NCBI RefSeq assembly: GCF_035594765.1
Contig: NC_085846.1
Span: 21,501,190-21,565,189 of the forward strand
DNA from: Anolis carolinensis
Taxonomy: Eukaryota
DNA: 64,000 nucleotides
Reading direction: 5' to 3'
Part shown: piece after piece, positions 6,005 to 61,386 of the stretch
Layout of the letters: every line of letters starts with the position of its first letter
How positions within the stretch are numbered: the stretch's first letter is position 1
The notes under the pieces: model-generated
What the model saw: only the letters and a program-made list of their open reading frames with translations
The model's database searches: none
Told to the model about the DNA's origin: nothing
Translations under genes and position numbers: made by a program

Positions 6005-8401
<2,397 letters not shown>

Positions 8402-38086: not shown

Positions 38087-38363
38087 AGTAAAGTTAAAGG
38101 TTTTCCCCTGACATTAAGTCCAGTCGTGTCCATCTCTGGGGGTTGGTGCTCATCTCCATCTCTAAGCCAAAGAGCTGGCGTTGTTCATAGACACCTCCAA
38201 GGTCATGTGGCCGGCATTACTGCATGGAGCACTGTTACCTTCCCGCCGGAATGGTACCTATTGATCTACTCACATTTGCATGTTTTCGAACTGCTAGGTT
38301 GGCAGAAGCTGGGGCCAATAGCGGGAGCTCACTCCGCTCCCTGGATTTAAACCGCTGACTTTT
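38087..38363 (-). mobile_element. Sauria SINE, 5'-truncated; the same insertion is present at about 56510-56697
   Basis: TSD TGCATA; identical truncation point and downstream flank in the second SLC27A unit. Confidence 0.82.
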
Positions 38364-40559
38364 TGCATACTCTGAACTAAATGAGCTAGCACTCTCTCTC
38401 TCTGACATGCAGGGAGTTAGGCCAGGATCACATTTTGGGAACAAATACCCCAAAGCAGAGGGTTGTTGCAAGCAGGGACAGGTTAATCTCTGCCGAATTG
38501 CACTTGCTCTCTCCAGCTTCCTCAGTCATCATATTTCCAAGAGGGGAAAATCATGGTAGTAGCAAAGAGTGGTAAGTCTGGTTCTGGTATTCGAATGTCA
38601 TCATTGTGTTCTACTTTTACTATTGTAATATCCTTTAATTCAGTTGTTACCAGACTATTGTGCAGCTGAGCCCCTTCCATACCGCTGTATAAAATCTACA
38701 TTGAACTGGATTATATGGCAGTGTGGACTCCGATAATTCAGGTCAAACCAGATATTGTGGGTTATGTGCCTTGATATTCTGGGTTATATGGCTGTGTTGA
38801 AGGCCTCTGAGTTCACAATTTCCCAGAAAAATCCAAAGGGAGAGTCCAGTGTGCAATTCCTGAACCCCAAATGTTGCCCATCACAACAGATAGACCCAGA
38901 GATCAACTAGTCAACAATTAACAAGTAGGCTGTTTCACTTTCTCACCAGAAAGGTTTGGTTTGTTTGTAACCCTGGAGATTTCAATGAAGGTTTATTCTT
39001 CTGAATATTTTCATCACGAAGATAGACAGAATCAAATTCATAGTTTATTATGTACTTTCTTGTAGAGGGCTTCACGTTGTCATAGTGTTGTTATGTGCCT
39101 TCAAGTTGTTTCCAACCTATTACAATCCCAGTTGGACCCTACTGCAGGGTTTTCTATTATGATTTGTTCAAAATAGGTTTGCCATTGCTTTCCTTTGAGG
39201 CTGATATAGTGTGAATTGCACAAGTTACTCAGCGTGTTTCATGGCTGAGCAGGGATTTGAACCCAGATCACCAAAGCCCTAGTCCCATGTGAAAACCACT
39301 GACTCCACAGTGTGTTTCTAATGCCTCCAAGGGAGACTTTTTTGTGAAATAAGAAAGTTAACTGGATCAGTGAGTCAGCTGTAATAATGTGGTGGAAAGA
39401 ACTGTGTGCTTGTTCGCTGAATGGGAGAAGAGCAGGAGTATTATGGTACATAAAATGAAGGAATTTACTGTGAACAAACCAAATAATTTTGCTTGCCAAC
39501 AATACAGTTTCATTTAAATTAAATTACATAAAATTAGGCCAACTTTTTTAATAAGGAAGAATTGGCACTCAGCACAAAATGTGTCTATGATTAATACAGA
39601 GACGAATACTGGTATGCCATTTTCTTGAGAAATCTTGAGCAATAGGAATGTGTCATCTTTAGAAAAGTGACCTGGTGGGTGCGGGGATAAGGCACTCAGC
39701 TGTGTAACCCCCAATGATCTTTTTGATACAAAAGATCTCATTTTCTGTAAAAGACCTACCAAAAAATCATAACAAAAGATAACACCCAGGGCACTGAAAT
39801 CATCGCACTCCAATGTCAGCAACGAAGCACGATGTAAAGTAGCACAATAAAAGTATCCTGTGAGTAGAATCACAGGGGAAAAAAGGAACAATAATTTCAG
39901 GGCCCTTCCACACAACCATATAACCAGGATAACAGGGCAGAATAACCCGCAATATCGGCTTTGAACTGGAATATCTGAGTTCACACTGACATATATCCCA
40001 GTTCAAAGCAGATAATGTGGGATTTTATTCAGCTGTGCGGAAGAAGCCTCAGATGAGGTAGCTTTGATGGAACAGCAATCCCAAAAGACCCCCAATCAAG
40101 AAATATTTCAAAAATCTAATCTCAGAAGTGAACGTGTCTCAAATGAAACTTCTGATAAATCTGATTCGGTTCCAAATTTTCACTACTTTTAAAAAACAAT
40201 ACTGCCAGGTTTCAGTGCAGTATGATTTCATATAATGCCATTCCAATGTAAAGTATGAAGTCATAAAGCAAACTGTGTTATGTGTGAAATGTTGCAAGGA
40301 AAAGCAGTTGGGAGACACCAGGCAGCAAAGAGCGAGGCAGCATTCAAGTGTGATCTCCTGCCAGTGAAAGTTTAGAGACTGGTAGCCAAGGATTTCCTCA
40401 AATCAGCCTGCAGGGACAGAGGGGTGGGAAGGGTGAGAATTTTCCTCTTGGTTGGTTGTTGCTCTTTGCTTCTTGTCTTCCACACAGAAGGAGTTGGACA
40501 GAGCCCTCAAAAAGCAGCGTGCCTGCTGCTGCCAAGGCATTTGACTCCAGATCCTAGCC

Positions 40560-41037
40560 ATGCTGGACCTGTATACAATTGCGCTGGGGCTGCTGATTCT
40601 TTTGCCCCTCCTGGGAAACATTTTCTTCCCTTACCTTTGGCTGGACCTGGTCTACTTCTGTACCATAGTGAAAAGTGGATACAAACTCCTACAGTGTCTT
40701 CGGCGGACTCCTCCTGTTACCCTCCTGGATGCTTTCTTGGAGAAAGTCAAGAAACATCCCGAGAAGCCACTGATTCTCTTTGGAGATGAGGTCTATACCT
40801 ACCAAGACATTGACAAGCGCAGCAATCAGGTGGCCAGAGTGTTACAGGGCCATGTGGGGCTGAAAGAATATCAAACGATGGCTGTTTTCCTGAAGAATGT
40901 TCCTGCCTATCTCTGGGTCTGGATGGGCTTGGAGAAAATTAGCTGTACCATGGCGTGTATCAATTACAACATCCGATCAAAGTCCCTGTTACACGTGCTC
41001 AGCTCCTGCGATGCCAAAGTGCTATTGACCACTCCAG
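40560..41037 (+). CDS. SLC27A2-like: SLC27A copy 1, exon 1
   Basis: GCCATG start, N-terminal hydrophobic anchor, donor CCAG|GTGAGC. Confidence 0.92.
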
Positions 41038-44000
41038 GTGAGCTACACTGTGTGCTTATATCCAAATGGGGATCAGAGATGTGTTTACGTTTTGTTCTCT
41101 TTGGTCATTGTCTTATTCCCCCCATAACTTTCTCAAAAGTTTTGGATAAATATAACCTCTCCTGCATTTAATTTGAAAAACTATTTGAAAACTGCTGTAA
41201 ATGCAGGAAACAGAGCGAGGAGAATCTGTGTCAAAAGTCATATAGATACCACTCAATATCTAGCTGTTAGTTTGAATTTCTCTTAGCAATACAGCTTCTA
41301 GAGCCAGGAAAGCTAGTTTTCTGCAAAACTAATTGGTCAAGAGACCTGGGTGTGTAATTTGAAAGAAATATATATGGTTGACTGTATTCTGGAAGCAATG
41401 GGTGTTGTATAGGTCTGGTTCTCATGCTTTGAAGGATGCATCTACACTGGAGAATTAATACAGTTTGACGTCACTTTAACAGTCATGGCTGGATGCTATA
41501 GAATCATAGGAATTGTAGTTTTACAAGGTCTTTAGTTCTCGCAATCATTGTTGGCGCCTCACCAAACTACAAATCCCAGGATTCCATACATTGACCCTTG
41601 ATGATTAAAGTGATATCAAACTTCATAAATTATCCAGTGTAGATACACCCAAAGACATGAATGGATCTTAAATTAGGAGCAGGTACAGTTTTTAAAGGCC
41701 GTTACTGCTGGTCTGGCTTCTTACGTAGTGCAAGTAAACCTACAGGTGTGCAGGTTTTCCACGTACAGTTACTACTTTCCCTTCATTTCCATTATTTGTT
41801 TCATTAGTGTTTTCTTACATGTCTGTCTGTTTTAATACTTGCATCTGGCTTTCTTATTTTATATTATTTTTACAAGAAGTTCATGTTAACTACTACTGTA
41901 TGTGGCGTTCTGCCCTCTGCAGGATGTCTGGAGAATGACTCATAGATATCCTTACAAGGGATATGTATTAGGCTTGTGCAGTCCAGGTAAACCTTGATCT
42001 GTTTCGTGTCCCGGTTTCGGTGGAGGCCTTGATCCATTTTTTTGGGAGCCTTCTGAAATTGGGAGGGGATATCTGTTTTTGCTCTGGGGTGCCGAAAGAT
42101 CAGCCCATTATGTGGGGGCTTCCCAGGCTCCCCTTCCCGTCCCTTTAGGCATTTAAGCTCTACTTTAGAGGGAAGGCACTCAGCTGCAGGCAGGCTCATG
42201 CTTTAAGGAGGCTTTTTGCCCATTTCTTACTCTAGAGGAGGTGCCTGGCTGCAGACAGGCGCATGTGCTTTCTGGGCCTACAAGCCACACATACTTTTCA
42301 AGGCAAGGAAGCAAGTTTACTCCAGAGGAGGCGCTCGGCTGCAGATAGGCACACACACTTTTTGGGCCTGCATGCCACACATGCACTCTTTCCAAGGCAA
42401 GGAGGCTGCTCACAAAAAGCAGGAGAAGCACCAGGATCGGCTCCCACTTGCTTTTGTGTCAAGCTGATTTTTGTACCAGGACTGGGCTTCCTATTACGTG
42501 CTCCTAAAGGTGCCGAAGGTTTTGGCATCATTTTTCAAAAGGCTGTGACTTCTAACAAGGTCATGCCTTTCCAAAGATCATAAAATCTCCAAAAAGTTAT
42601 GGAGATTTCCATTTTCCAAAATAGAGACGATCTTTCTGGGCATTACTACGTTCTCTCCAGTGTGACTTTATGGTCAACTTTCTGTAGAAGCATACCATAT
42701 AATTGCACTTGGGGACCTAGGAAATGCCTAGAGAATACATATTTTGTCATGTGAAGGTAAATTAAACTGTGAATTATAGATCTTGTGGCTACAGAAGGGT
42801 GTGTGTGGAGGAAGTCATACTGTACTCCTCCCTCCAGAATGGCAATGTGTTTTATATAGATTTATTTTAAAAATCAATTGTTGATCATTTTGAAAACCAA
42901 ATACAGATGTTGACAATTGCTTGCGAATTTCTGAATGGATCAGAAAATTATGTATGTTAACATAAATATAAAAATTATTATTTATTATTATGTTTATTTA
43001 TACCCCACTTTTTCTCTCCACAAGGAGATTCAAAGTGGCTTACATTAAAAGCATTTTAATCTACAATCTACAAATGTACAAACTTTAAAACAGAATTAAA
43101 CATCAATAGTATTGTAAAAAAAATCATGGTTAAAATCCATAAAAACATATTCAAAGTTACAAAATATAAAAGGTTAACAGCTTTTCTTGACTTGGACTTT
43201 TATGTCAGCATTAGAGGAAAGAGGACATTTCTGCTGGGCTGGTGAACAAAAGGAAACCCATCCTCACTGAATCAATAGCATTCTTTATTCATGGAAAGAA
43301 AGGAAAGCTGAACCAAATGAGTGCCAAAACAAATGCTGTTCCAGATTTTGTTGCCTCTATATAACTTTTGTCAATGGCGGTGCATTGAAAGCTATTATTT
43401 ATAATCAGATTACATCATTTTTAATTGTGGAATTTTGGGGTAGACCATTGTTTGCCAGGAGTCCCAAACATGCAAGTTAGAAAGCAAGGTCTGACCAAAG
43501 ATCTTTCTTTACTCTTTGCCAGATTTTCGAGAAGTCATTGAGGATGTCCTGCCTATTCTAAAGAATGAAGGTGTGCAAGTCTTCTATCTGAGTGATGCCT
43601 CCCCAACTCCTGGTGTGGAAGCTTTGCTGGGACGGATGAAATCCAGTTCAACTGACCCAATGCCTGTCTCTTCCAGAGCCAATATAACCCCTAATTCTAT
43701 ATCCCTGTATATTTTTACTTCTGGGACCACAGGTGAGTCGAACTTTGTCTACATTTACCTGAGAAACCTAGGCAGAAGTACAAGGCCGCTCACAACATCC
43801 TTATACCAAGAAGAGGGCGAGACACGAGGTGGCTGAGAGTGCTCCAGAGGGCTCTCAGCTGCTGTGTGCCTTCCTCCCCGTCCTTTCTGCATAAGGATGA
43901 GGTGGACCACCACTTCCTTATGCCAAGGGGACAGGAAAAATGAGGAGGGCCTGAGGTAGGTGCCCGGGGGCTACATCTGATCCCCGGGCTTTACTTTGCC

Positions 44001-44724
44001 CATGCCTGCCATAGAATCATACTGCAAGATTAACAAATACTTAGATAAGTATTCTCTTTAGGAAGCTGTAGTTCATTCATCGCAACTCTGACAGAAGGTG
44101 GCAATAGAGGCATAGTGGATGACCTAGAGATTCCTACATTAATCCACAAATAATCAAATCTGTAAAAATCAAACCTACAAACATAGAAGGCTAATTGTGC
44201 TACTTCTTGCTTGAGGCAATATTTGTCATTGTTAGATGAGCCCTTTCTCTTTCTCCGTCTTTCTCTAGGACTACCGAAAGCTGCTCCCATCACCCAGAGA
44301 AAGCTACTCATTGCGGCTGGCATGTTCGGTGTATGTGGGGTGAAGCCTCAGGATATCATCTATACCCCACTCCCACTTTACCACTCGGCTGCATTGCTTA
44401 TTGGAGTAGGAGGATGCTTGGAGGTTGGTATGTATAGAAGGGTTGAATACATAAGGGTTGAAACCCACTTCTACCTGTGTGTCTATTTGAAGAACTAGGT
44501 AGATGTGAGCAGTTTGAGAGATATTTTTGGTGAATTGACATCAAAGTGTAATGATTGTTTGGGAGAAGATTCATGCCCAGCTCTCTAGACTTTCATCATC
44601 TGAACCCTGAGATTTAAATAGGATGAATTCACAGCGTTTTTCTGTGTAAGTGTTCTGTATACAAAGTATTAATCATGAAAAATCCTGAATTCCTCTTCCA
44701 CCTTATGTAGTAGTAGTAGTAGTA

Positions 44725-44769
<45 letters not shown>

Positions 44770-45935
44770 TGTTACAGAATCAATCTCCCTTATCTGAAAT
44801 GCTTTGGATTTTGATTCCACACCCCTGATATTGGAATACTTGTATTTGCATATACTAAGTGAACGAGGAATAAGGGAAAGGGGGTTAGTCACACATCCAG
44901 CACCTGTCTTCCCTCTCCTCAAGGACCCCCTGTTCTACTACTATCAGACATCCAATGGGTGAAAGGGAGACAACTTCGCTTACACTAGGCTTGTGCAAAA
45001 AGCAGACATCCCAAATACTTCCATGGCTGTCAACACATGTTTCATCACCTTAGACGGAAGGGAGAGTAAAACCTGCCCCTGCCTCCCACAAATCCTTTTC
45101 ATTCTTCTGGATACAGACGGTAGTCACTGGGGTCATTCTGTATTTGTCCTCATGATGAATTTGTAGGAATCGCACCCTGCTGCAAACTACCATTGGTGGG
45201 TACTGGAAGTGTGACTAGCCCCCTTTCCCCAAAGGCAGAAGTTGTTGACGCCAAAAAGTTTCAGTTCTTTTAGTATTTCTGTTTTCCAGATTAAGGAGAA
45301 TCAATCTTATCTGCTTTTCCCTATTGATAGAGATGGTGAGCAACAACAGATGACGTAACATCAATTAAAATGATAAATAAAACCACTATATATTAAAATG
45401 TTGATATTATGGCTGACAGAGTTTCTATGAACTTTGTTTTTTTCTTACATCAGACTTTTTGTTGTTCCACAAGATTCATAATAACCTACTCCTTACCACC
45501 TTTCTTATTACTGTATATGCATGTATGTGACTAAGTTTCTGTGGGATCACTACTTGTGTAAGTGTGTGTTAAGAGAAAAACACCTGGTTAATTACAACTC
45601 ATGGTTGAGTAATTGGAACAATCAGGGCTAACAGGCTTGAGCCACTCCCTGAATGGGGTATATCTGGAAAATGTTTGCAATGTCTTTTGGGGGACTTACT
45701 GAATGCTTGCTGAGAGCCTACTATGAAGATGCATGAATTTAATGCAAGAGACTTTATGTGAGTTTTGTTGCTGGAAGTTTTATTATGATTTTTGACTCTG
45801 CTACTTAAGAGTAAATTTTTGATTTTCTCTTCCATTTTCGTGGCTTGTTTTTCTTTTGCTCATTGTGGATACAACAACAGACTGGATAAGTCTGGACAGG
45901 ACTGCACGCAGTTTGTTTTTCAACAAACCCGTAAC

Positions 45936-45969
<34 letters not shown>

Positions 45970-48900
45970 CTCTCTCTCTCTCTTTGGATTTCCTAAGGAG
46001 CTACACTTGTCTTGAGGTCAAAGTTCTCCGCTTCCCAGTTCTGGGATGACTGCAGGCGATATCATGTCACCGTGATCCAATATGTAGGAGAAATGATGCG
46101 GTACCTGTGTAACTCACCAAAGGTAACTGGGAGAAACCACATATGTTGGGTAAAAGGAGGCAAAATTGCTGTTGAGTCTAGAATATGAGCTGGAATAATT
46201 GCAATTTTCTTGGTATAAAAATATTTAGAATAACAATTCCTACCTATGGTTCATGTGGAGCCCCAGTGGCGCAGTGGGTTAAACTGCTGAACTTGCTGGC
46301 CGAAAGTTCTGTGTTTTGAATCTGGGGAGTGGGGTGAGCTCCTGTTGTTAGCCCCAGCTTCTACCAACTTAGCAGTTCAAAAACATGCAAATGTGATTAG
46401 ATTAATAGGTACTGCTCTGGCATGAAGGTAACGGTGCTCCATGCAGCCATACCGGTCACATGACTTAGGAGTTGTTTACGGACAACACCGGCTCTTTGGC
46501 TTAGAAATGGAGATGAGCACCAACCCCCGGACTCGGACTTGACTAGACTTAATGCCAGGGGGAAAGCTTTGCCTTTACCATCAATTGGCTTTGATCTTCT
46601 GTGTTTCCCAAGAATCAGTAAATGCCAATGGTCCATTCTCTAGAGTCTCTAGTTGAAAGTTAATCTGTGAATTACTGCCATTTGATTCCATATTGGGTAG
46701 AATGAAGGTTTGTCCACAACAGTCAAACCTGCAAATGTGGAGGGCTGACTATAAGAACCTTGTAGGAAAATCTAGCTGGGATCTTTTCAAGTCAGGATGA
46801 AAGAAAGCAATTTATAAAAGATCCCAGCTCAACCATTTAGAGTTGAGACACAGCACAGGCAAACAGCTGCTAATAGCACATCTGTATTACCACAATGATT
46901 GCCTTGACTAATTGCCTTGCAGAGGGACAATGACCGTGACCACAGTGTACAGAGAGCCATAGGCAATGGCATGCGGACAGAGGTCTGGAAGGAATTCCTC
47001 CGTCGATTTGGATTCCTGCAAATCTATGAGTTCTATGGAGCGACTGAGGGGAATTTTGGGTTCATTAACTACACTGGGAAAGTCGGAGCTGTGGGAAGAA
47101 TTCACTTCCTTCAAAAGGTAATGAAGTGGAAGATGATTCATGATTGGAGATGTGATTGGTTAGGAGGAATCCTGCTGTTATCTGCACTCCGTGAACAAAG
47201 ATCCTGCTAATATTGGCGTTTGAGTGTATACATCGATAAGAGACTTGAGAGGAATCTTCTGAAGATTGTATAGAAAGTTTGTGGTGGCATTAATGTGGAA
47301 TTATGAAGTTACTTTTCCTGCTTCAAGGATATGCTGTAATTCCTATACCAGAATAACAAACACACAGGTCATGTGAGTCGTTCATAAAATACATTCTGCT
47401 GCTTGCACAGGAACTTCTGCCTTTGGACTGACATTTCCATTTCATGTTTGTTCCATTTCAGAAAATGACAATGTTTGAAATTGTTAAATACGATGTTGAC
47501 CAGGATGAGCCAGTAAGAAACGAGAAAGGGCATTGCATCCCAGTAGCTGCAGGTATGTTTGTAAAATCAACATGCACGTATAGATTGGAGTTATATAAAG
47601 ATAGTATTATTTTTAGATGCCTTTTTCCTCTTTACAAATGATTCTGTACATTAAATACAAATTCATTATTTTAATGACAGCCCCTATGGAAAAAGATGGA
47701 AAGCCGTAAGAGGATGCTAAATGGTTTGTACCAGGACTATACATATTCATACACACACACACATACCTTAGTGGCTCAGGTAAAATCATTCTGATTGGTC
47801 TGAGGAATATTACAACCTCATTTTGCTTAAGTAACCTGAATACTGAATAGTGAGGAGGAAACAGCTTTTTTTCTGCTGTCCAGAGACTAGGATATGGAAC
47901 AATGGATTCAAACTACAGGAAAAGAGATTCCACCTCAACATTAGGAAGAGTTTGTTCAACTATGGAATACACTGCCTTGGAGTGTGGTAAAATGACTTTC
48001 TTTGGAGGTGTTTAAATAGAGGTTGGCTAGCTATCTGTGAAGAGTGATTTAATGTTATATTCCTGTATGGCAGGGGGCTGGATTGGATAGCCATTGTGGT
48101 GTCTTCAACACTATGATTCTTTAGCTTATTCCTCTGGTTCTTTTTTACTCTGCAGGCGAAACAGGCTTACTAGTGTGCAAGATCACTGAGGTCGCCCCGT
48201 TTTCAGGCTATGCAGGAGACCGCAAGAAGACAGAGAAGAAGATTCTTCGGGATGTCCTAAGAAAGGGAGACAGCTTTTTTAATAGTGGTGACCTTCTGAT
48301 GCAAGACCATGAAGGTTTTATATATTTCCAGGACCGAGTGGGAGACACTTTCCGGTAAGCAACAGAACACATCTACGGCATGGGTAGAACTGGCTCCTTT
48401 GCCTTTATTTACTGTGGTTGGGGACGCAGAATCCCTGCAGAAATGGAAAGAAATTTTTTAAAAAGCTACTTTTTAAACCTGGGGTAATACCTCTCTAAGA
48501 GGTATTCTAATGGAGATTGACCATAGACTCATGCTGCAGGAACTATAGGTGTATAGTGATGTGTTGGCTTTAGGAATCTTTAGGTTTTCCAGGACAGAAT
48601 TATGGTCAGCTCCATTCTGATAGACCTAGAAATTCTGAAAGAGACTGTATTAATCAGATCTGTGAATAATTAAATATGTACAGTTCAAACATGCAAATGT
48701 GGGTGGCTATCCGCATTTCTGTACAGTTCTCCAATGCACAAGGGTTTCTTGGGCAAAGAAAGAATAAAAACCAATTACAACAAAACAAGAAGAAAAACTA
48801 AAGAAAACATATTCAATACAGTTTAAAAATTTCCAAAATAAGCCTAGAATGCAGTTTTGAAACAATTAAACATTACTTTCAAACTGAATGACATCACCTT

Positions 48901-51840
48901 AAAAAAAGGGATGTTGTGTTGGTGGCTGATGTACCATTGGTTATGCTTGAGAATTGCTCTAAGCAATGTACACAGCAATATGTGTACGTCAGTCTACTTG
49001 TGTCCAAATGGACTGATATTCATGCACCTGTGTTTATGGTCCCATCTACACAGACATTATAATCCATCTTGAAGCTGGCTTGAGGCTGTGATGTCTACAA
49101 AATGTTCACCTCCAATGCAACCTCCAACAAGCATCCAGCCAGAAACTGTACTTTAAAAAACCTCACTGAAAAGCCCAAAACCTGCCACAAAATTTGCTAT
49201 AGCCAATCACTGTATGGCTGCTGTAAAACAGGAATTAGAGATCAACATGTGGAATACACATGAGGGCAAGGCTAGTGCTGGAACATTTGGATAAAAGAAC
49301 CAGATACATAGCTCATCTGGAAGGTAAACAAACTCCTTCCCCCTGGAAAGGAAGTTGATATTTTCCTTTCTTGCTTTGCCTTAAATTGTTGTAATGTAGA
49401 TCCTTATCAGATAAGGTGATTCTTTGCACTGCATCTTGTCGGATGAGATAGGGAGAAAAAAATATTTCTTTCAATTGGTTAATCTGCAATCTGTGAATTT
49501 GTGTGGACTCCACTCCAGCTTCAAGCTGGTTTCCAGGGTGCCTATGTAGGATTTTTGTATTTACTGCCTATGTAGAAAAACGAATCTGTTTTTCAACATC
49601 CTGAATTAGATTAAATTGCTGTGTGGAAGCACGTTGTCTACATATATACACATGCAGAATATGCGCACCACCCAGGCAGGTGATGATGTGAATTGGCAAA
49701 CAAAAAGCAAACCTTTGAGTAGAATCTCCCATGACTTCTCCCCTGAGTAAGGTGTTATTATTAGCATAAAAGACACAATATTAACAACTCCTCTCTCATT
49801 GCAGCTGGAAAGGGGAGAATGTTGCTACTACAGAGGTTGAGAGGACCTTGGCTGCATTGGACTTCATTGAGGAAGCCAATGTATATGGGGTGCCAGTGCC
49901 AGGTGGGTCTCAAATGCAGTTATTTTTATCACATCTTCGTGATGCCCTATTTAATGTCCAAATGTATGTCATGGGAAAGCTGTGACATCAGTACCTGATA
50001 TCATAGTTAGGAATTTTTATTCCAAGTATTTTTATTATTATTCCAAGAACATTATTATTCACGCTGTTAAAGATACTGATGTACTATTGTTTTTGGAACA
50101 CTGATCCTTTGGTGCATTTATAAGTTACGATTCAAAATGACCTTCTCCCACTCGGTTCTGTACAAAGTAGACTGCTTTCTTTAATGCAGGGCTAGACAAA
50201 TGCTGGCAGTCTGGGGAAGCATTTATAACATTTTTAAGGAAATAGAAAAATGGGAAGGCAAACTGTTTTGACACGAAGTGCCCCTGAACTGGCTCTGTTT
50301 TCCCACCATGGGGTTTCAGCTATTTGTCTCGTAATTCACATTTAGTTCCCCACAGGATAAAGGTGCAGTGTGTAGGAAAAAAAGGGAGGAGGGAACCATC
50401 CCTTCCTCTTGTAGAAGAAGCAACCTTTAGAGATTTTTCACATTTTTTTGTGTGTAATATGTAATCCCATTATTATTATTATTTTTAAAAACAACAACTC
50501 TGCTTTGTTTCAGGGCATGAAGGAAAGACTGGAATGGCAGCAGTACGGCTGAAAGATGGGCTCTCCTTCGATGGAAAAAAGCTGTATGCACATGCCAAGG
50601 ATTACATGCCAAACTATGCCATACCTCGTTTTGTGCGTCTCAGGGTGAGCATAAGAAAAACATCCAGAATAACACAAAAATTTGAGGGAGATCACACTGC
50701 AGATGGAATGATTAAATTAAGAAACACAGAGACCAGAGTTTGCAGGACTTGAGCTCATAGAGAAATCTTGGAGGTTTCTTATTCATAGAGATGTCATAAG
50801 CAGAGCCGCCCCAAGGTAATTTTGGGGGGTAGGCGAACCAAATCTTTGTGCCCCCCTGAATTTGCCCCCTCCCCCCCCCCGCGCACAAACCAATACCTGA
50901 GAGCTGGGGCGGCGGGGACCATCGCTCGCCAAATGGCCGAACGAGGTAGGCCAGGCTCCAGGAAGGCCTAGCTCTTCTAGGGAGACCTTGCGAGGTCTTG
51001 CGAAGTCTCGTCAGGTCTCCAGAGAAGAGCTTGGCCTTCCTTGTTCTGCCGTTTGGCGAGCGATGGTCCCCACCGCCGGGGACCATCGCTCGCCAAACGG
51101 CTGAACGAGGAAGGCAAGGCTCTTCTCGGGAGACTTCGCAAGGTCTCCCTAGAAAAGCTAGGCCTTCCTGGAGCCCGGCCCTCCTCGTTCGGCCATTTGG
51201 TGAGCGATGGTCACTGGCGGCGGCACCTGGATAAACACCGGTGCTAAATTTACACGGGGGTAAATTTACACGCCCCCCTTGATGTGCGCCCAATGCGATG
51301 GCTTCATCCGCTTCCACGTTGGACTAGCCCTGGTCATAAGTCGAAACTGACAGGAGGAACAATAAACGCAAATAAGGGTAATTAAGGAGGATGTGCCAGT
51401 ACAATGCCTTTATGGCTCTGATTATAGGCTTCCAGATGGACTCACAGACCAGCAGGCCTCCAATATAAGCCAACAATCAAAAGATTCAGCCATGGTTCTC
51501 CTGCAGGTTTTAGTGTTTGCAACCGGACACAATGAAAATCACCAAAGAATTAGGCAGGGAGTTCTTCCAATGTTCAGAGCCAAGTCTCATTCCTCTATTC
51601 TACTATATAATGTGACTAAATGATGTAGTCTAATTTGGGCTCCATGGGTTATTTTTTTTGCAGGAAGCCCTGGAGATCACTGAAACATTCAAACAACGCA
51701 AAGTTCAATTGGTGAAGGAAGGGTTCGACCCAGCCATCATCAATGACCCTTTATACTTCTTAGATGACTCGGAAAAATGTTACGTGCCCATGACTCAGGA
51801 GATCTTCAGCTCCATCACAAAGAAGAAACTGAAGTTGTGA
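40560..51840 (+). CDS. SLC27A2-like: Very-long-chain acyl-CoA synthetase / fatty acid transport protein (SLC27A2/SLC27A5 subfamily), copy 1; join(40560-41037,43523-43732,44269-44427,45998-46122,46923-47117,47462-47552,48156-48354,49805-49902,50514-50644,51664-51840), 620 aa
   Basis: Ten GT-AG-bounded exons of 478/210/159/125/195/91/199/98/131/177 nt sum to 1863 nt in frame. AMP-binding motif [27 protein letters not shown] motif SGDLL...[24 protein letters not shown]-terminal LKL. Confidence 0.92.
41434..41650. mobile_element. PIF/Harbinger-like MITE in intron 1 (duplicated at about 61783-61998)
   Basis: TIR GG.TGCATCTACACTG...CAGTGTAGATACACCC. Independent copies at about 13299-13495 and 56135-56352. 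Confidence 0.7.
43523..43732 (+). CDS. SLC27A2-like: SLC27A copy 1, exon 2
   Basis: TTGCCAG| ... LYIFTSGTT |GTGAGT. Confidence 0.92.
44269..44427 (+). CDS. SLC27A2-like: SLC27A copy 1, exon 3
   Basis: CTCTAG| GLPKAA...PLPLYHSAA |GTATGT. Confidence 0.92.
44707..44769. repeat. Compound (TAG)n(TAA)n microsatellite
   Basis: Seen directly in the sequence. Confidence 0.95.
45938..45983. repeat. (TC)n microsatellite forming the exon 4 polypyrimidine tract
   Basis: Ends about 14 nt upstream of the exon 4 start. Confidence 0.9.
45998..46122 (+). CDS. SLC27A2-like: SLC27A copy 1, exon 4
   Basis: CCTAAG| [42 protein letters not shown] |GTAACT. Confidence 0.9.
46257..46579 (+). mobile_element. Sauria SINE, near full length
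   Basis: GGAGCCCCAGTGGCGCAGTGG head; CCTTTACC tail. Confidence 0.85.
46923..47117 (+). CDS. SLC27A2-like: SLC27A copy 1, exon 5
   Basis: TTGCAG| [23 protein letters not shown] |GTAATG. Confidence 0.92.
47462..47552 (+). CDS. SLC27A2-like: SLC27A copy 1, exon 6
   Basis: TTTCAG| ..[18 protein letters not shown] |GTATGT. Confidence 0.9.
47850..48120 (+). mobile_element. Old CR1 3' fragment
   Basis: Diverged match to 17640-17938. Confidence 0.7.
48156..48354 (+). CDS. SLC27A2-like: SLC27A copy 1, exon 7
   Basis: CTGCAG| [16 protein letters not shown] |GTAAGC. Confidence 0.92.
49805..49902 (+). CDS. SLC27A2-like: SLC27A copy 1, exon 8
   Basis: TTGCAG| [19 protein letters not shown] |GTGGGT. 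Confidence 0.92.
50514..50644 (+). CDS. SLC27A2-like: SLC27A copy 1, exon 9
   Basis: TTTCAG| [22 protein letters not shown] |GTGAGC. Confidence 0.92.
50801..51332. mobile_element. hAT non-autonomous element with an internal double palindrome (intron 9)
   Basis: Perfect 8-bp TSD GTCATAAG (50793-50800, 51333-51340); CAGAGC...GCCCTG termini. Confidence 0.85.
51664..51840 (+). CDS. SLC27A2-like: SLC27A copy 1, exon 10
   Basis: TTGCAG| [34 protein letters not shown], stop TGA. Confidence 0.92.
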   Translation, partial: EALEITETFKQRKVQLVKEGFDPAIINDPLYFLDDSEKCYVPMTQEIFSSITKKKLKL

Positions 51841-52870: not shown

Positions 52871-53189
52871 AAGTAACGGTAAAGGTTTTCCCCTGACATT
52901 AAGTCTAGTTATGTCAGACTTTGAGGGTTGATCCTCATCTCCATTTTTAAGTCGAAGAGAGGCTTCCAAGGTCACGTGGCTAGCATGACTGCATGGAGCG
53001 CCATTAGCTTCCCGCCGGAGCAGTACCTATTGATCTACTCACATTTGCATTTCTTCGCACTGCTAGGTTGGCAGAAGCTGGGGCTAAACAGTGGGAGCTC
53101 ACCCTGCTCCCTGGATTTGAGCTACTGACCTTTCAGTCAGTAAGTTCAGCAGCTGAGCGGCTTAATCCGCTGCGCCACCGGGAGCTCCC
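52871..53189 (-). mobile_element. Sauria SINE
   Basis: 13-bp TSD AATTCCCTGCATA (52858-52870, 53190-53202). Confidence 0.9.
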
Positions 53190-54179
53190 AATTCCCTGCA
53201 TAGAGACACATAAAAGCATGAAATTTAACGTGCGATGGGAATTCCCCATTGTCTCCATAAAATTCCCCAAAGAATAATATAGAAGACATCACATTTCGTT
53301 ATCTCTTGTTAAAAAGTACTTCCATGAGAAGAAACACAGAAAAGAAAACAGGGCAGGAGACAGTGGGAGGATAATGTGCCCCATGTGATGGGAAGGCAAA
53401 CAGATAACGTGATGGTGGTAGGAAAATCATTTGTTTAATTTCCAAATGGGGTGTTGCAAAGCTTAACGGAAAAACATCGATCCTCAACGCTTTACTTATT
53501 GCGTGGGATGAAGTCGTAAGATTCCTCACTTCATGCTCCCAGACTCAAATTCAATCAACACATAGATCGGATGGTCACCTATATCACCTAGTTGTCTTTC
53601 TTTTGGGTTTGGTGTTTGTATGCATGCATTTGTGGGTTGATATTTCACCCTCCTCTTTTATAGATTTCACTTTATACATGTATGTGGGACATATGGCAGG
53701 CATCAAACTGTGAAAGATGCTAAAGTAAGTCTTAGTAGATGAGTTTAGGAAGAGGAAGCAGAAGATCTGAGCAAGATGTTTCACTTGGGGTGGTGATGTG
53801 ATGTGAAGGAGTATAAATAGGACTGCCTTGAGATGCCGCTATGGAGCAGAAGCAAAAGGTTGCCAGTAATATATTTTTCCATATATATCTAGCAAGGAAA
53901 TAAATTTGGTGCCCATGAAGGGAAACCATAGTGGCAGTATGAGAAGGGAGGGAGGAGCACTGCACCACTAGAGCTTGCCATTAATTTTTAAATCCTGTCC
54001 TCTTCCAAAACGTGAAATTTGTAAAATGATTGATTGTTGTGTAAGATGAGAGAGGACAATGTATTCCAAACCTGGCCATTTTGTTTTCAAAGAGCATCAC
54101 AGCACAATTCCACCTGTTTGCCTGAAATAATGTGCTCATTGTTTATGTTTATGTGAATTAGCAGAATAGAAAAAAAATC

Positions 54180-54185
54180 AATAAA
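54180..54185 (+). terminator. Candidate polyadenylation signal of SLC27A copy 1 (alternative AATAAA at 52702)
   Basis: AATAAA immediately followed by ATTAAA. Confidence 0.3.
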
Positions 54186-54886
54186 ATTAAAATGTTGGAA
54201 AAATCATGAAATGCTGTGGATGGCAGAAACTGGATTTCTTAATTGTTACAATTGATGTCATGCAGCACTAACCAATAGCTGGTACTTGGTACGTTTCTAC
54301 AATTTTCTTAGATGTTTCAAAATGTAATGGGATGTTCAATTTGGGATTGCTAGAGGCTACTGGGATTTGAAGACCAGTAATATTCGGAGAACCAATTGAT
54401 ACTGAAATAAAGCATGTAGGGAGCATTCATATTACAGTATTGCTTCCGTATCCATGGGGAATATGTTCCTGGACTTACTATGGAAACATGAAACTACCGA
54501 TAATAGCAACCTGTGTTGAAATGAATGACTATTGGTGGACACTTACTAGAGAATTGCTCTGGAGGACTTGGCAGATGTCTAGAGAGTACACTCTAGGGTT
54601 TTCAGTGTCCCCCAGCACAACTCTAGCCTGCTGTTGGCAGACACATATCATAGAACTGTACTGGATGAACTAGAAAACGCCGCTTTAGTATTTCTAGTCC
54701 TTAACTTTCTCTGGTAGAATGTCTCTTTTTAGGACTTGATGAAGATAGATGGCAATTCATTCTCTTTGTAAGAACTCTTCATCAGTGGAAGAGATGGCCT
54801 CAGAAGGTGGTGGTTCTTTTTGTTTGGAGGTCTTTAAACAGAGATTGGGTGGTTATCTTTCAGGAGGGCTTTAGTTGTGTACAGTA

Positions 54887-55170: not shown

Positions 55171-58039
55171 GTACAGTACAACCCACTTCACTCGTTCAGG
55201 GATGATCCCCATCTGAAATCTGGAGGAACTGTTGACACTGATAAAGGGTTGTACCTAGTTGTCTCATTGTAAGACATTCCTGTTGCATGTCAAAGAAGGT
55301 ACTATGGGTAGGACTGGTAGGGAGCAAAGAACACAGTACTGATTAGATAAATCAAAGTAACTTGACTGGGATCCAAGTGTGTTATCAAATCAGTCTTCGG
55401 GAAGCGAGAGGAGGTGAATGAATTCCATCTGATCCACACTTGCTCTTTTGCTTTTGCCTTCCATGCAAGAGGACAGAGCTTACAGCAAGCAATTGAAGGC
55501 TTCTGGTTCACTTTCTCAGAGTCAGCAATAATTATTACCAACATTATAAAGTTAAATAGTAAGGGAGGGGAAGGGGGGTGGGGAGAATGCCACATACTGA
55601 TACCTGTCAGCTCTATATGGGGCATTTTTTCTAACCCCAGTTGAGGAAGTTAGTGACCCTACTTTGGTACCATCTTAATTCTGGTAACACCTTCATGAAT
55701 GGCCATTGTTAATCCAGGACACGAGAGAAGCCTCCCAGCACAATGGTAACACATCCGGGAGTCCCCTGAACAATGTCTCTGTAGATGGCCAATTCTCTCA
55801 CACCAGAAGCGATAAGCAGTATGTCCTCAAGTTGCTTCTGACGTGATAAAAAACCCTATTAATCCCATTTTATAGTTAATGGACTGAAGCTGATAAATAT
55901 TAACTTTCTGAAGACCACTTGGCCTCGTGTATAAAATGATTGAATAGACACAAAAACAATGAAAAATTTCTCAAGTATATACAAAAAAAGGTTATTGTTG
56001 TAAGGCAAATAACTGACAGGTTGCTATGTTGCTTCTGCTGAAAACTGCCAGTGGCATCTATTTGTCTTATTAGGATGGCTGCTGATGAGAAGCTTGATTG
56101 CCCAACCAAAACTAGGATGCGTGTGGTTTCATCGGGCACATCTTCACTGCAGAGTGAATGCCATTTGATACCACTTTAATTGATATGGCTCAAAGCAATG
56201 GAACCATGGAAGTTATAGTTTTACAAGATCTTTAGCCTTCTCTGCCAGAGTGCTGGTTCATCAGCAAACTACAACTTCACAGGGTTCTATAACACTGAGC
56301 CATGGCAGTTAAAGGATGTCAAACTGTATTACTTCTACAGTATAGATGCACTCATAGTAGCTTGACCATTTTAACATGTATTTAACAACTGCATGTGATA
56401 TCTCCCATAAAGCCATACTCTATGAACAGGCCCTATATCAGTGGTTCTCAACTCGGGGTCCCCAGCTGGTAAACTGGCTGGGATTTCTGGGAGTTGAAGG
56501 CCAAAAACAGTGGCGTTGTTCATAGACACCCCCAAGGTCATGTGGCCTGCATGACTACATGGAGCTCTATTACCTCCCCGCTGGAGCGGTACCTATTGAT
56601 CTACTCACATTTTCATGCTTTTGAACTGCTAGGTTGGCAGAATAGGGGCTAATAGTGGGAGCTCACTCTATTCCCCGGATTCGAACCGCCGACCTTTTGC
56701 ATACTCTGAACTAAATGAACTAGCGTGCACTCTCTCAGACATGCAGGGAGTTAGGCCAGGATCGCATTTTGGGAACAAACACACCCCAAAGCAGAGGGTT
56801 GTTGCAAGCAGGGACAGGTTAATCTGTTCTGTTGCATCCAAAAGGAGAGTTTGCTGAGTAAGCTGGGCTGGAAAAAAAGAAGCAATTGTACTTGGCAGGA
56901 GAGATAAAGGAAGAAGGTGCAGTTAGCCACGGGCAGCAAAGAGCAGTACAAAACAAAGTGCAATACAAGAAACACAGGCAAACATGTCAAGAAATGTGTG
57001 GTTGTGTTATTTTTGGTGAAGGAGGGAACTCGGTATTCTGGGGCCTCTGATATCCATTAGGGTTTGGGTTCCAGGACCTCCCTGTGGACAGCAAAATCTG
57101 TGGATGTTCAAACCTCATTATATACAAAGGAATAGTAAAATGGTATCGATATAAAATGGCAAACTTGCTTTCATATCTCCTCTGGAAGTTATCATTATTT
57201 TGTGCTTAGAAATTTTTCAAATTCCTAGAGAGGATACATGCAACAAAACTCTTAAGGCAGTGGGTCTCGACCTGTGAGTCGCCAGATGTTTTGGCCTTCA
57301 ACTCCCAGAAATTCTTACAGCTGGTAAACTGGCTGGGATTTCTGGGAGTTGTAGACCAAAATGCCCGGGGACTCACAGGTTGAGAACTTCTGCTCTAAGA
57401 TATATTAGTACTGGAGGTGAGATAATGGCATTCAATCATATCCAGTTGATAGATCGCAGTTACCCAGTGTGTTTCATGGCTGAGCAAAAGACCAAGAAGA
57501 AATGGAGCCAATCAAGAAATATCTCAAAAATCCAGTCTCAGAAGTGAAGATGTCTCAAATGAGACTTCTGATAAATCTGATTCTGTTCCAAATTTTCACT
57601 ACTTTTAAAAAACAATACTGCCAGGTTTCAGTGCAGTATCTCTCTATATAAAGGGGTAATGGACTTTCTACCTAGAAACAACAAAACCACACAACCCAAA
57701 CACACGAAACTTGGCAACACAACCCAAAATCCTTGCCCCAAGGTTCGTACAATAAAATGACACATCATGAATGGAAACTTGCCCCCAAAACCCCCAAAAA
57801 ATTAAAAGTAAGTTTATGTTGGTTAAAATTGTTCTTCATTTTAAGTATTATATTGGTTTTTTTTTTACAGTTTTTGTGCACTACAAAAAGGATATGTGCA
57901 GCGTGCAAAGGAATTCATTTTTTCAAACTATAGTCTGGGCCCCCAACAGTCTGAGGGCCCATAAACTGTCCCTCTGCTTAAAAAGTTCAAGGGCTCCTGG
58001 CATACACCCTCTGTGTTCATTAGGTGGAACAAAACTTCT

Positions 58040-58251
58040 AAGGGCTGTGGCGCAGGCTGGTTAGCAGTCAGTTGCAACAAACCACTCTGACCAAGAGGTC
58101 ATGAGTTCAAGGCCAGCACGGTGCCTGCGTCTGTCTCTGTCTCTGTTGTATGTTAAGGCATTGAATGTTTGCCTTATATGTGTAATGTGATCCGCCCTGA
58201 GTCCCCTTCAGGGTGAGAAGGTCAGAATATAAATACTGTAAATAAATAAAA
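58040..58251 (+). mobile_element. tRNA-derived SINE with L2-type tail, inside the Helitron
   Basis: GGGCTGTGGCGCAGGCTGG A box, GAGTTCAAGGCC B box, CCGCCCTGAGTCCCC..(TAAA)n tail. Confidence 0.7.
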
Positions 58252-59419
58252 CTGAGAAAAAATTATGTGCACCTAAGTCAACCTGGATTCCGCGTGAGGC
58301 CCTCGCACGCTCCACCCCCGCTCCACAACCGCCACTCGTGCACAAGCCATTCCCCGCCGTGCCAGCCATCTTGCCCACCATCCCCACAACACAGTGCGAG
58401 GAAACAGAGAGAGCAGAAACAGCGTTGACATCCTGTACGGGGCTTACCGTTTCCCCCCGCATTTCTTCAGCCTTCTTTCCAAACCAACATGAGTTTGGAA
58501 GGCGGAGGAAAGGAAAGACCGCCCAGGAAGACAACAAGGGAGGCAAAATCAGCAGTTTCACCTCACAGGACTCCACAGCAGAGCTTGCTGTATGTCCTCA
58601 CACGACACTAAAACAGTACGGTGGCCTCCAAATAGCGGGTGGAGACATCCTCAGGGGGTGGGGCAGAAGGAAGGAGCCGGGACAACAAGATAGCCTGACA
58701 AACTGCCACTGCAAAGGGGGCGGATGGCTGTATGACAGAAAAAAAAGGTGTGCGCCACAAAATTGCGCTGACAGACACAGCGCAAGAGTAAGGTGGCCAG
58801 CACATCGTGGAACTGAGGAACCTTGGGGGGGGGGGGAGGGAAAGGAAGGGGCCAGGACAGCAAGGGGCCCTGAAAAACTCTGCTGCATCCTACTCTTGGA
58901 TGGGAGGGAAGGGAGCGAAGAGGCCAAACTGCTGTATCACATAAAATAAAATGGCGGAGGGCACAAAATGGGGCCAACAGCCACACCGACAGAGTCAAGT
59001 GGCCTCCAAAAAGTGCTTCGGAGGATCCTCGGGGGTGGGGGGTGGGGGTGGGAGGGAAGGGCCCAGGAGAGCAGGGGAGGCTGACAAACTCTCACACATC
59101 CTAAACTTGGACGGGAGGGAAGGGAGCGAAGGGTTTTGAGGCGAGGAGGGGAAATTGGAAGGTCTCTTTCGAGGGCAGAAAATAATTGAGTGGAAATGGG
59201 GGCCAATGGACAGGGAAGGGGAAAAGGGGGAGTTTGGGGTGAGGAGACAATAATCATAATAATAATAACATGGGGCCAATGGACAGGGGAAGGGGAATGG
59301 GGGAGGTTCGGGGTGAGGAGACAATAATAACAACAACAATAAGAATAATATGGGGCCAATGCAGAGGGGAATGAGAAATCTTTGGGGTGAACAGGAAAGA
59401 ATAATAACAAGAATAACAA

Positions 59420-59460
<41 letters not shown>

Positions 59461-59871
59461 TCCTGTTTCCCCTAAAATAAGACATCCCCAGAAAAGACCT
59501 AGTAGAGGTTTTGCTGAATTGCTAAATATAAGACATCCCCCGAAAGTAAGACCTAGCAAAGTTTTTGTTTGGAAGCATGCCCAACGAACAGAACACCAGA
59601 ACATGCAGGATTGGTAAATGTACGTACCATAGGGTGTTGTACATGGAAATATTGGTAGTAACAAGAAATTCTTGATAGGATTCTTGTCTGGTTATGCTGC
59701 TTTGTGATAACAACTACTGTACAGTATATAATAAATGTTCATTTTTTTGTTCAACAATAAATGTGAATTCTTCTTCATGGAAAAATAAGACGTCCCCTGA
59801 AAATAAGACCTAGCGCATCTTTGGGAGCAAAAATTAATATAAGACACTGTCTTATTTTCGGGGAAACACAG
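59461..59871. mobile_element. Tc2/pogo-like MITE inside the Helitron
   Basis: 23-bp TIR ..TGTTTCCCC.AAAATAAGAC / GTCTTATTTTCGGGGAAACACAG; TA on both sides; adjacent to (CTA)n tracts. Confidence 0.78.
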
Positions 59872-59921
59872 TACTAATAATAATAAGGAACTAATGGGGG
59901 GTCCTTGGGGTGACCACAAAA

Positions 59922-59974
<53 letters not shown>

Positions 59975-60908
59975 ATAATAATAATAATAATAAAAAAACA
60001 CTAATAACAGAGGGTCCTCACAGCAAAGGGTAATAGGGCTACTCTCAAACCAAGCAAATAATATATTGGGGGGGGGGGGGATGCCTAAACTCCCTTGAAC
60101 AGTTCAATAAAATGCCCATTGAACTGGATTATACGGCAGTCTGGACTCAGATAACCCAGCTCAAACCAGATAGTGTGATTTACCTACCACGAGATTCTAG
60201 GGTCCCTTCCGCAGAACTGAATGCCATCGCCCATTTCCTGCTTTGAACTGGGTTCACTCTGAACAACACTCTAACAACAAGGGCATTCCAGACATGAAAC
60301 AATCAGGGCCAGCTAACACCTTCCCAACAAAACATTCCCCCAGGGAGGAAGCAGCCAGGGTTTGAAGCTGAAAGCCCATTATATCCATAACATTCTACAA
60401 AACTGCGGCCTTCAGACTTGCCTCCAACAGACAAAACTAACAGCCAGAAATATTGTATATTCACATACTATAGAAACTAACATATACTAACTACCGCCAA
60501 TTCTTCAGTACTTTATTTCCAACACCACCACAATTTGCCACATCATCACGTGGCCGGGCACAGCTAGTGATTTCATATAATGCCATTCCAATATAAAGAA
60601 TGAGGTCATAAAGCAAGCTGTGTTATGTGTGAGATGTTGCAAGGAAAAGCAGTTGGGAGACACCAGGCAGAAAAGAGCGAGGCAGCATTCAAGTGTGATC
60701 TCCTGCCAGTGAAAGGTTAGCGACTGGGAGCCAAGGATTTCCTCAAATCAGCCTGCAGGGACAGAGGGGCGGGAAGGGTGAGAATTTTCCTCTCGTTGGT
60801 TGTTGCTCTTTGCTTCTTGTCTTCCACACAGAAGGAGTTGGACAGAGCCCTCAAAAAGCAGTGTGCCTGCTGCTGCCAAGGCATTTGATCAGACTCCAGA
60901 TCCTAGCC

Positions 60909-61386
60909 ATGTTGGACCTGTATACAATTGCGCTGGGGCTGCTGATTCTTTTGCCCCTCCTGGGAAACATTTTCTTCCCCTACCTTTGGCTGGACCTGGT
61001 CTACTTATTTACAATAGTGAAACGTGGATACAAATGCCTCCAGTGTCTTCGGCAGAATCCTCCTGTTACCCTCCTGGATGTTTTTTTGGAGAAAGTCAAG
61101 AAACATCCCAAGAAGCCACTGATTCTCTTTGGAGATGAGGTCTATACCTACCAAGACATCGACAAGCGCAGCAATCAGGTGGCCAGAGTGTTACAGGGCC
61201 ATGTGGGGCTGAAAGAATGTCAAACGATGGCCGTTTTCCTGAAGAATGTTCCTGCCTATGTCTGGGTCTGGATGGGCTTGGAGAAAATTAGCTGTACCAT
61301 GGCTTGTATCAATTACAACATCCGATCAAAGTCCCTGTTACACGTGCTCAGCTCCTGCGATGCCAAAGTGCTATTCACCACTCCAG
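60909..61386 (+). CDS. SLC27A2-like: Very-long-chain acyl-CoA synthetase / FATP, tandem copy 2, exon 1 (gene continues past the window)
   Basis: 478-nt exon with 20 substitutions relative to copy 1, open frame and the same donor. The window ends about 33 nt before the position equivalent to exon 2. Confidence 0.9.

What the first reader, a model, noticed from the sequence alone, without database searches (positions are those of the whole stretch)
57639..60567. Helitron inserted 341 bp upstream of the copy 2 start codon, with the empty site preserved in copy 1
Seen: copy 1 reads TTCAGTGCAGTA|TGATTTCATATAATGCC. Copy 2 has 2929 bp inserted exactly at A|T, starting TC and ending CTAG, with a GC hairpin 13 nt from the end and no TSD, which are the rolling-circle hallmarks. 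Inference: it separates the proximal promoter from upstream sequence in one paralogue only, a natural experiment in TE-driven regulatory divergence of duplicated lipid or bile-acid enzymes.
Basis: partly seen in the sequence, partly recalled or inferred. Interest (0 to 1): 0.7.

Follow-up and report, generated by a model that had tools for sequence, protein, structure and literature searches.

The report
Helitron beside one duplicated lizard gene
A 2.9-kb rolling-circle transposon sits just upstream of one of two near-identical fatty-acid/bile-acid enzyme genes in the green anole and is absent from the other; the gene next to it is still transcribed and spliced, some RNA runs across the transposon's end into the gene, and the insertion is likely a tolerated passenger with at most a minor effect on expression.

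Summary
It is a non-autonomous Helitron: over 1,300 candidate hits per end, the same termini in sister copies, and a relative with the same 5' end encoding Rep and PIF1 domains. It carries a nested Tc1/mariner MITE and a 440-bp piece copied from another chromosome. The genes are intact 620-aa SLC27A2/A5-like tandem paralogues of Anolis carolinensis. The 'natural experiment' is confounded. Upstream of the element the copies share only 131 bp plus a 315-bp block, 1.6 kb of copy 1's upstream has no counterpart, and the 341 bp below the element differ at 12 sites. Spliced copy-2 RNA contigs occur in 5 of 5 runs laid. Four cross the Helitron's 3' junction; in two studies the main contig begins about 104 bp below it. 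Best reading: a tolerated insertion that leaves the core promoter working and adds minor upstream transcription. It is a new member of a known kind; a regulatory role is untested.

The parts
57639..60567 (+). Non-autonomous composite Helitron, 2,929 bp, A|TC...CTAG|T, same orientation as the gene
57639..57799 (+). 5' terminus, shared with a RepHel-bearing relative (86%)
57800..58247 (+). Inserted 448-bp piece flanked by AAAA on both sides: 8 nt of unknown origin, 3' end of a hAT-type element (57808-57999), 42-bp spacer, Sauria-type SINE ending at its tail (58042-58247; SINE name recalled). 94% identical to one donor locus on contig C4
58248..59133 (+). GC-richer internal segment shared with RepHel-bearing relatives; low-depth locus-specific RNA contigs at 58448-58720; next at 59070-59222
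59461..59871 (.). Nested Tc1/mariner MITE, 411 bp, TA on both sides; TIRs match TcMar-N3_AC/N5_AC (2 and 1 mismatches in 20)
   Evidence: Table 2 passage of PMC3014272
59893..60567 (+). 3' part shared at about 88-93% with an abundant 1.4-1.6 kb non-autonomous family
60537..60554 (+). Subterminal hairpin (5-bp stem, 8-nt loop), 13 nt before the end
40222..40223 (+). Empty A|T site in copy 1
57508..57638 (+). 131 bp of upstream sequence shared with copy 1 (40092-40222), displaced by the element
56511..56825 (+). Distal shared block (copy 1: 38176-38489, 9.9% diverged); likely start of the duplicated unit
60568..60908 (+). Copy 2 proximal promoter and 5' leader; main RNA contigs of two studies begin at 60671-60672 (weak hint of the main start)
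60909..61386 (+). Exon 1 of copy 2 (SLC27A2/A5-like, 620 aa, 10 exons, continues beyond the window)
40560..51840 (+). Copy 1, intact 10-exon 620-aa ORF
55171..56399 (+). Duplicated remnant of the third paralogue's promoter and first intron, exon 1 deleted; end of the duplicated unit

Best explanation
This is a non-autonomous Helitron that sits at an A|T site 341 bp before the start codon of the second of two tandem SLC27A2/A5-like genes, likely inserted by rolling-circle transposition soon after the duplication, and it likely leaves the gene's own core promoter working while adding only minor upstream transcription. Shown: the termini, the empty site, the family, a RepHel relative, the intact genes, spliced copy-2 RNA contigs, and contigs that cross the 3' junction. 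Inferred: mobilisation in trans by the RepHel family; insertion after the duplication; a main start near 60670, about 100 bp below the element; an origin of the minor RNA in the element's GC-richer interior (same strand as the gene; the matching region lies 5' of the RepHel frames in the relative); and little protein output from the long leader, because it adds five upstream ATGs. The two nested pieces likely arrived by other routes: the MITE by cut-and-paste, the C4-derived piece by LINE-driven retrocopying of a read-through RNA or by templated repair.
For: Termini in sister copies: 19 of 19 3' ends are followed by T, 16 end CTAG and 18 CTRR, and 13 keep the perfect 5-bp stem. Of 19 5' ends, 8 align from base 1 with TC, and 7 of those 8 follow an A. 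First-look candidates number 1,467 (5') and 1,321 (3'), 40 scored each. L080 shares the 5' end and interior (72-86%), ends in CTAG|T about 7.7 kb on, and encodes Helitron_like_N (E 1.5e-51) and PIF1 (E 1.2e-54). Age is compatible with insertion near the duplication: the 3' 578 bp are 3.2% (non-CpG) from the majority of 21 sisters and 4.7% from the nearest; the paralogues differ by 4.1% pooled, range 1.0-6.4%. The gene is not disabled: both copies give 1,863-nt ORFs, and copy-2-type spliced contigs occur in 5 of 5 RNA-guess runs from 4 studies. In X5 the contigs upstream of 60672 have depth 5-9 against 83 for the spliced contig. X5 and X20 main contigs begin at 60672 and 60671. There is no ATG from 60671 to the start codon, and five in 60293-60670.
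Against: In X1 and X8 a single contig runs from inside the element (60293, 60507) through the spliced mRNA, and X17 also bridges the junction, so upstream transcription may be more than minor in some tissues. X8 and X20 come from the same study yet differ. Contigs give no strand, start or level. The 5' and internal parts are further from their sisters (4.9-6.0% non-CpG from the majority, nearest 6.3-6.4%) than half the paralogue distance, so the order of insertion and duplication is not proven. Only the copy with the Helitron was recovered as mRNA, which a positive effect would also produce, but the runs were chosen with copy 2.
Confidence: 0.65

Rival explanations
1. The Helitron supplies a promoter or enhancer on which copy 2 now substantially depends, replacing upstream sequence lost by rearrangement, and it drives divergence between the paralogues.
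For: Same orientation as the gene, and about 100 bp from the likely main start. 4 of 5 RNA-guess runs bridge the 3' junction. Interior contigs with 0-1 differences at 58448-58720, where the nearest other genomic copy is 88% identical. CpG observed/expected is 0.5-0.6 at 58000-58800 against about 0.2-0.3 in the upstream flank. Helitrons supply transcription starts in bats (PMC4224331, PMC4778049; passages).
Against: Depth step in X5 and contig starts at 60671-60672 in two studies; five upstream ATGs in the long leader; 12 substitutions and 2 indels in the proximal 341 bp could explain any difference without the element. Helraiser inserts preferentially into promoters of expressed genes, so the position alone is expected.
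Confidence: 0.15
2. The RNA over the element's end is not initiated in it. It is read-through from copy 1 or from the duplicated third-gene promoter remnant, antisense promoter-upstream RNA, or background merged into the contig.
For: Low-depth contigs with no substitutions cover copy-1-specific downstream DNA (53124-54238) in 4 of 4 runs, so the interval is transcriptionally leaky. Contigs are unstranded, and the run type is a guess.
Against: The junction-crossing contig in X1 and X8 is continuous with the fully spliced mRNA (exon 1 to exon 2 letters; for X1, 1,207 letters to the last exon, matching exons 2-9). Antisense RNA would have to overlap the mRNA by at least 31 nt to merge (inference from contig construction).
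Confidence: 0.12
3. The element is older than the present paralogue pair: it was a polymorphic insertion caught by unequal crossover, or it was removed from copy 1 by gene conversion.
For: Patchy paralogue divergence (1-7%; 9.9% in the distal block) suggests conversion; the element's 5' part is 6-7% from its nearest sisters.
Against: The empty site is exact (40 of 40). The 3' part is 3.2% from its family majority, within half of the most diverged paralogue blocks.
Confidence: 0.12
4. It is not a Helitron but a chance insertion of mixed repeats.
For: The hairpin is no more stable than shuffles; the element encodes no RepHel; about 30% of it is nested repeats.
Against: Both termini are shared in order and orientation by 14 paired sister copies of 0.9-5.4 kb; RepHel relative; A|T target without duplication.
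Confidence: 0.01

Closest known systems
Anolis non-autonomous Helitrons (Helitron-1N1_AC, Helitron-2N1-5_AC; Novick et al., PMC3014272, passages)
   Same: Species, non-autonomous structure, no TIRs, high copy number; one family (2N3) is described as carrying SINE fragments.
   Different: This copy is a 5'/3' mosaic of two subfamilies with a MITE and a copy-private interchromosomal insert. It could not be assigned to a named family because the consensus sequences were not readable. That paper writes 'TA TSD'; here there is no duplication.
Helraiser / bat Helitrons (PMC4778049, PMC4224331; passages)
   Same: A|TC...CTAG|T junctions, 3' hairpin, insertion near promoters, contribution to 5' ends of transcripts, and retroposed sequence inside elements.
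   Different: No captured host promoter was found here; no sister carries the insert; function is untested.
HeligloriaB of Anolis (PMC2997563; passages)
   Same: Anole Helitron family of several hundred copies with TC/CTRR ends.
   Different: Membership not tested; sequences not seen. That paper found no autonomous partner in the lizard, whereas a RepHel relative with the same 5' end exists here.
SLC27A2/SLC27A5 (FATP2/FATP5) acyl-CoA ligases
   Same: 620 aa, AMP-binding domains, best solved-structure match FATP2 (E 4e-251); database names are FATP2-like, FATP5 or bile acyl-CoA synthetase.
   Different: Three tandem copies here. SLC27A5 orthology is suggested by a neighbouring BTB zinc-finger gene that resembles ZBTB45 (name recalled; cattle neighbourhood in PMC12215704) but was not tested by a tree.

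Membership tests
Helitron (non-autonomous) | 5' TC terminus | tested here: met
   8 of 19 sister 5' ends align from base 1 with TC, the other 11 are blurred, mostly by TA/TG repeats
Helitron (non-autonomous) | 3' CTRR terminus | tested here: met
   CTAG; 18 of 19 sisters CTRR
Helitron (non-autonomous) | Insertion between A and T without target duplication | tested here: met
   exact empty site, 40 of 40; 19 of 19 sisters followed by T
Helitron (non-autonomous) | 16-20-nt palindrome shortly before the 3' end | tested here: met
   18-nt hairpin 60537-60554, perfect stem in 13 of 19 sisters; thermodynamically unremarkable
Helitron (non-autonomous) | Dispersed copies with both ends | tested here: met
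   14 paired sister copies L061-L074, chosen because both ends had hits
Helitron (non-autonomous) | Related element encoding Rep and helicase | tested here: met
   L080: PF14214 and PF05970 in separate, interrupted frames
Autonomous Helitron | Own RepHel ORF | tested here: not met
   longest stop-to-stop frame on the element's strand is 235 aa with no resemblance to RepHel by eye; not scanned against Pfam
Named Anolis family (Helitron-1_AC/2_AC series, HeligloriaB) | Identity to the published consensus | not testable with these tools
   supplement of PMC3014272 not readable; supplements of PMC2997563 not requested
Helitron capture of host DNA | Captured piece propagated in sister copies, or gained at a bypassed end | tested here: not met
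   2 full-length matches among 25 scored: this copy and the donor; 6 of 6 sisters aligned lack the insert; it lies 160 bp inside the 5' end
TE-derived promoter | Capped sense starts inside the element | not testable with these tools
   only unstranded contigs were available
TE-derived promoter | RNA continuous from the element into the gene | tested here: met
   4 of 5 RNA-guess runs bridge the junction with at least 50 nt on each side; contigs, not single molecules
Tc1/mariner MITE (nested) | TIRs and TA duplication | tested here: met
   TIR from Table 2 passage

The most novel reading that the evidence does not exclude
After a tandem duplication scrambled copy 2's upstream region, a same-strand Helitron landed about 100 bp from its start site and became a working promoter or enhancer. 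The Helitron-bearing copy became the main, more ancestral-like enzyme, while the empty-site copy drifts (16 against 8 derived amino acids, P = 0.15). This would be a documented Helitron-driven regulatory split between duplicate genes in a reptile.
Probability: 0.12. Interest if true: 0.6.

Novelty: new member of a known kind. Interest (0 to 1): 0.3.

Why it matters
Helitrons are common in the anole genome, and insertion near promoters is expected, so the element alone is ordinary. The locus is still useful. It has an exact paralogous empty site, two intact young genes, an insertion seen in RNA contigs of four studies, and RNA crossing the junction, so a single reporter or CAGE experiment would show whether a Helitron feeds a host gene in a reptile. 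The nested piece also records a SINE-terminated interchromosomal copy with its donor still identifiable.

Tried and rejected
(1) The hairpin as independent proof: it folds no better than shuffles. (2) The 16.9-kb, 5.4-kb and 4.8-kb sister copies as autonomous partners: their long frames look like nested retroelement ORFs, not RepHel (judged by eye). (3) My first reading that only 131 bp are shared upstream: corrected by the 315-bp distal block. (4) Helitron capture as the origin of 57800-58247: rejected, see Membership tests. (5) Ranking the paralogues by expression: no copy-1-type letters were seen in exon 1 (X1, X5, X8) or the last exon (X1, X5, X17, X20). The runs were found with copy 2, contigs drop rarer variants, and copy-1-specific downstream contigs exist, so this is no evidence that copy 1 is silent. 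(6) No RNA cover at 56756-57096 in 4 of 4 runs and at 57438-57778 in 3 of 4: a hole proves nothing, so read-through is not excluded. (7) No run listed is on record as RNA; splicing is my ground for treating them as RNA. Tissues are unknown. (8) The DNA run X4 spans the junction with only 29 letters on one side, below the tool's bar, and was not counted. (9) Motif scan: an AGGTCA half-site (60603) and a GC box (60767) are present in copy 2 and not in copy 1; the strict TATA pattern found nothing in either; a TATAAA hexamer at 60592 is read from the sequence. There was no chance control, so these are not used as evidence. (10) Protein asymmetry of 16 against 8 is not significant. (11) Earlier scan findings: none. 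(12) Paper searches (listings only) showed nothing on this locus; subscription papers and unread supplements may hold family consensus sequences. (13) The neighbouring BTB zinc-finger gene could not be named by a tool.
Full report
1. Observation. Every stated feature holds. The empty-site string is unique in the window at 40211-40239. The insert 57639-60567 is 2,929 bp, A|TC...CTAG|T; its joined flanks match copy 1 at 40 of 40 bases, with no target duplication. The hairpin lies at 60537-60554, 13 nt from the end, but is no more stable than shuffles (z -0.84). The copy 2 ATG is at 60909, 341 bp below the element.

2. The element. Searches of the own genome gave 1,467 first-look candidates for the 5' end and 1,321 for the 3' end, 40 scored each. 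I examined the 19 best non-self loci per end. All 19 3' ends are followed by T, 16 end CTAG, 18 CTRR, and 13 keep the perfect stem. Eight 5' ends align from base 1 with TC, 7 of them after an A; the other 11 are blurred, mostly by TA/TG repeats. Fourteen loci picked because both ends had hits are paired copies of 0.9-5.4 kb. L080 shares the 5' end and interior at 72-86%, ends CTAG|T about 7.7 kb on, and holds interrupted frames for Helitron_like_N and PIF1. The window's copy has no RepHel frame by eye. Its 5' half resembles the RepHel-bearing subfamily and its 3' part an abundant 1.4-1.6 kb family; L061 and L078 show the same mosaic. These features match the definition in PMC2997563 and the junctions made by Helraiser in PMC4778049 (passages). 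Anole Helitrons are described in PMC3014272 (passages); its supplement was not readable, so no family name is given.

3. Nested pieces. A 411-bp Tc1/mariner MITE (59461-59871) has TA on both sides and TIRs matching TcMar-N3/N5_AC. A 448-bp insert (57800-58247) is absent from 6 of 6 sisters aligned. It matches one other place in the genome at full length among 25 scored: contig C4, 25 differences in 405 aligned bases. There the hAT-type element has both ends, and an older repeat continues on both sides of the hAT and the SINE in 7 of 8 family copies tested, so C4 is the donor. The copy starts mid-hAT, ends at the SINE tail and is flanked by AAAA. I infer retrocopying of a read-through RNA or templated repair, not Helitron capture. 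The names Sauria SINE and RTE-like are recalled.

4. The genes. The best protein matches are Anolis carolinensis long-chain fatty acid transport proteins. Both copies give 10-exon, 1,863-nt ORFs that translate exactly to P0003 and P0094; dS 0.037, dN 0.020. A third, older paralogue (about 70% in exon 1) follows. An A. sagrei protein is 92% identical to copy 1, against 96% between the copies, so the pair is likely younger than that split or has been homogenised since. Against A. sagrei, 16 of 27 differing residues are derived in copy 1, 8 in copy 2 and 3 are unclear (P = 0.15). The duplicated unit runs from about 38176 to the third gene's first intron, leaving a remnant without exon 1 at 55171-56399.

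5. What the element separates. Upstream of it, copy 2 shares 131 bp (57508-57638) and a 315-bp block (56511-56825, whose 3' 126 bp match only these two places among 40 scored) with copy 1. Copy 1's 38490-40091 has no counterpart, and about 680 bp of other sequence stands there. Below it, the 341 bp differ at 12 sites and 2 indels. The pair is therefore not matched except for the Helitron, and the natural experiment is confounded.

6. Timing. Pooled non-CpG paralogue divergence is 4.1% (406 of 9,788 sites), range 1.0-6.4%, and 6.3% in the distal block. The element's 3' part is 3.2% from the majority of 21 sisters and 4.7% from the nearest; its 5' and internal parts are 4.9-6.0% from their majorities. 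This fits insertion close to the duplication, but not a strict order.

7. RNA. Twenty of 24 listed runs hold the copy-2 stretch; none is on record as RNA. I laid 6 of them: five RNA guesses from 4 studies and one DNA guess. The RNA-guess contigs are spliced: exon 1 continues into exon 2 letters, and in X1, X5 and X20 one contig reaches the last exon after 1,207 letters, the length of exons 2-9. They are copy-2 type; X17 carries 12 of 12 diagnostic substitutions and 3 of 3 indels in the last exon and 3' UTR. Four of five bridge the element's 3' junction (X1 from 60293, X5 from 60435, X8 from 60507, X17 from 60518); X20 does not. In X5 the upstream contigs have depth 5-9 against 83, and X5 and X20 main contigs begin at 60672 and 60671, a weak hint of the main start 104 bp below the element. 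From there to the ATG there is no upstream ATG; the longer leader adds five. Low-depth contigs with 0-3 differences lie inside the element (58448-58720, 59070-59222, 60083-60165); for the first of these stretches the nearest other copy is 88% identical. Contigs with no substitutions also cover copy-1-specific downstream DNA in 4 of 4 runs, so copy 1 is probably transcribed too. Contigs give no strand, start or level, and the runs were chosen with copy 2. The shared allelic differences inside the element's end (5 sites in X1 and X5) show that it is carried on other haplotypes.

8. Mechanism. Most likely (0.65): trans-mobilised rolling-circle insertion at a promoter-proximal AT site, a preference shown for Helraiser; tolerated because the core promoter lies in the 100 bp below it; minor read-in from the element's interior. 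Rivals: the element is a working promoter or enhancer (0.15); the upstream RNA has another source (0.12); the element predates the pair (0.12). These rivals are not mutually exclusive. The Helitron call itself is near certain.

9. Novelty. Helitron contributions to transcript 5' ends are known in bats (passages). Six paper searches (listings) showed nothing on this locus. It is a new member of a known kind; interest 0.3.

Noticed in passing
window 57800-58247 and L091 4937-5342 (G000:C4): A hAT-end + spacer + SINE piece copied from contig C4 into the Helitron, ending exactly at the SINE tail: a possible 5'-transducing SINE retrocopy with an identifiable donor.
   Followed up: yes
window 55171-56399: Duplicated promoter and first-intron fragment of the third paralogue with exon 1 deleted, sitting between copies 1 and 2.
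   Followed up: partly
window 53124-54238: Low-depth RNA contigs with no substitutions over copy-1-specific downstream DNA in 4 of 4 runs, ending near polyadenylation hexamers at 54180/54186: possibly a long 3' UTR of copy 1.
   Followed up: partly
window 40560-51840 against 60909 onward: Copy 1 has 16 derived amino acids against 8 in copy 2 (P = 0.15), with a cluster at residues 236-251; dN/dS between the copies is 0.55.
   Followed up: partly
window 60592-60772 against 40247-40430: A TATAAA hexamer, an AGGTCA half-site and a GC box are intact in copy 2 and altered in copy 1; no chance control was run.
   Followed up: no
window 19414-23541 (-) and 7457-8401 (+): A BTB zinc-finger gene resembling ZBTB45 (name recalled) and a C2H2 zinc-finger exon; the neighbourhood suggests that the cluster is orthologous to SLC27A5.
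   Followed up: partly
L080 with L092 (G000:C2, about 278.637-278.645 Mb): A 7.7-kb decayed RepHel-bearing Helitron with a GC-rich repetitive insert between Rep and helicase; L079 is a 7.4-kb relative not scanned for domains.
   Followed up: partly
L075-L076 (G000:C1:48047000-48064600): A 16.9-kb Helitron copy inflated by two tandem LTR-type retroelements with long open frames and a LINE-type fragment.
   Followed up: no
window 7889-8337, 34486-34700, 50910-51212: Short internal tandem duplications (zinc-finger repeats; two minisatellite-like pairs).
   Followed up: no
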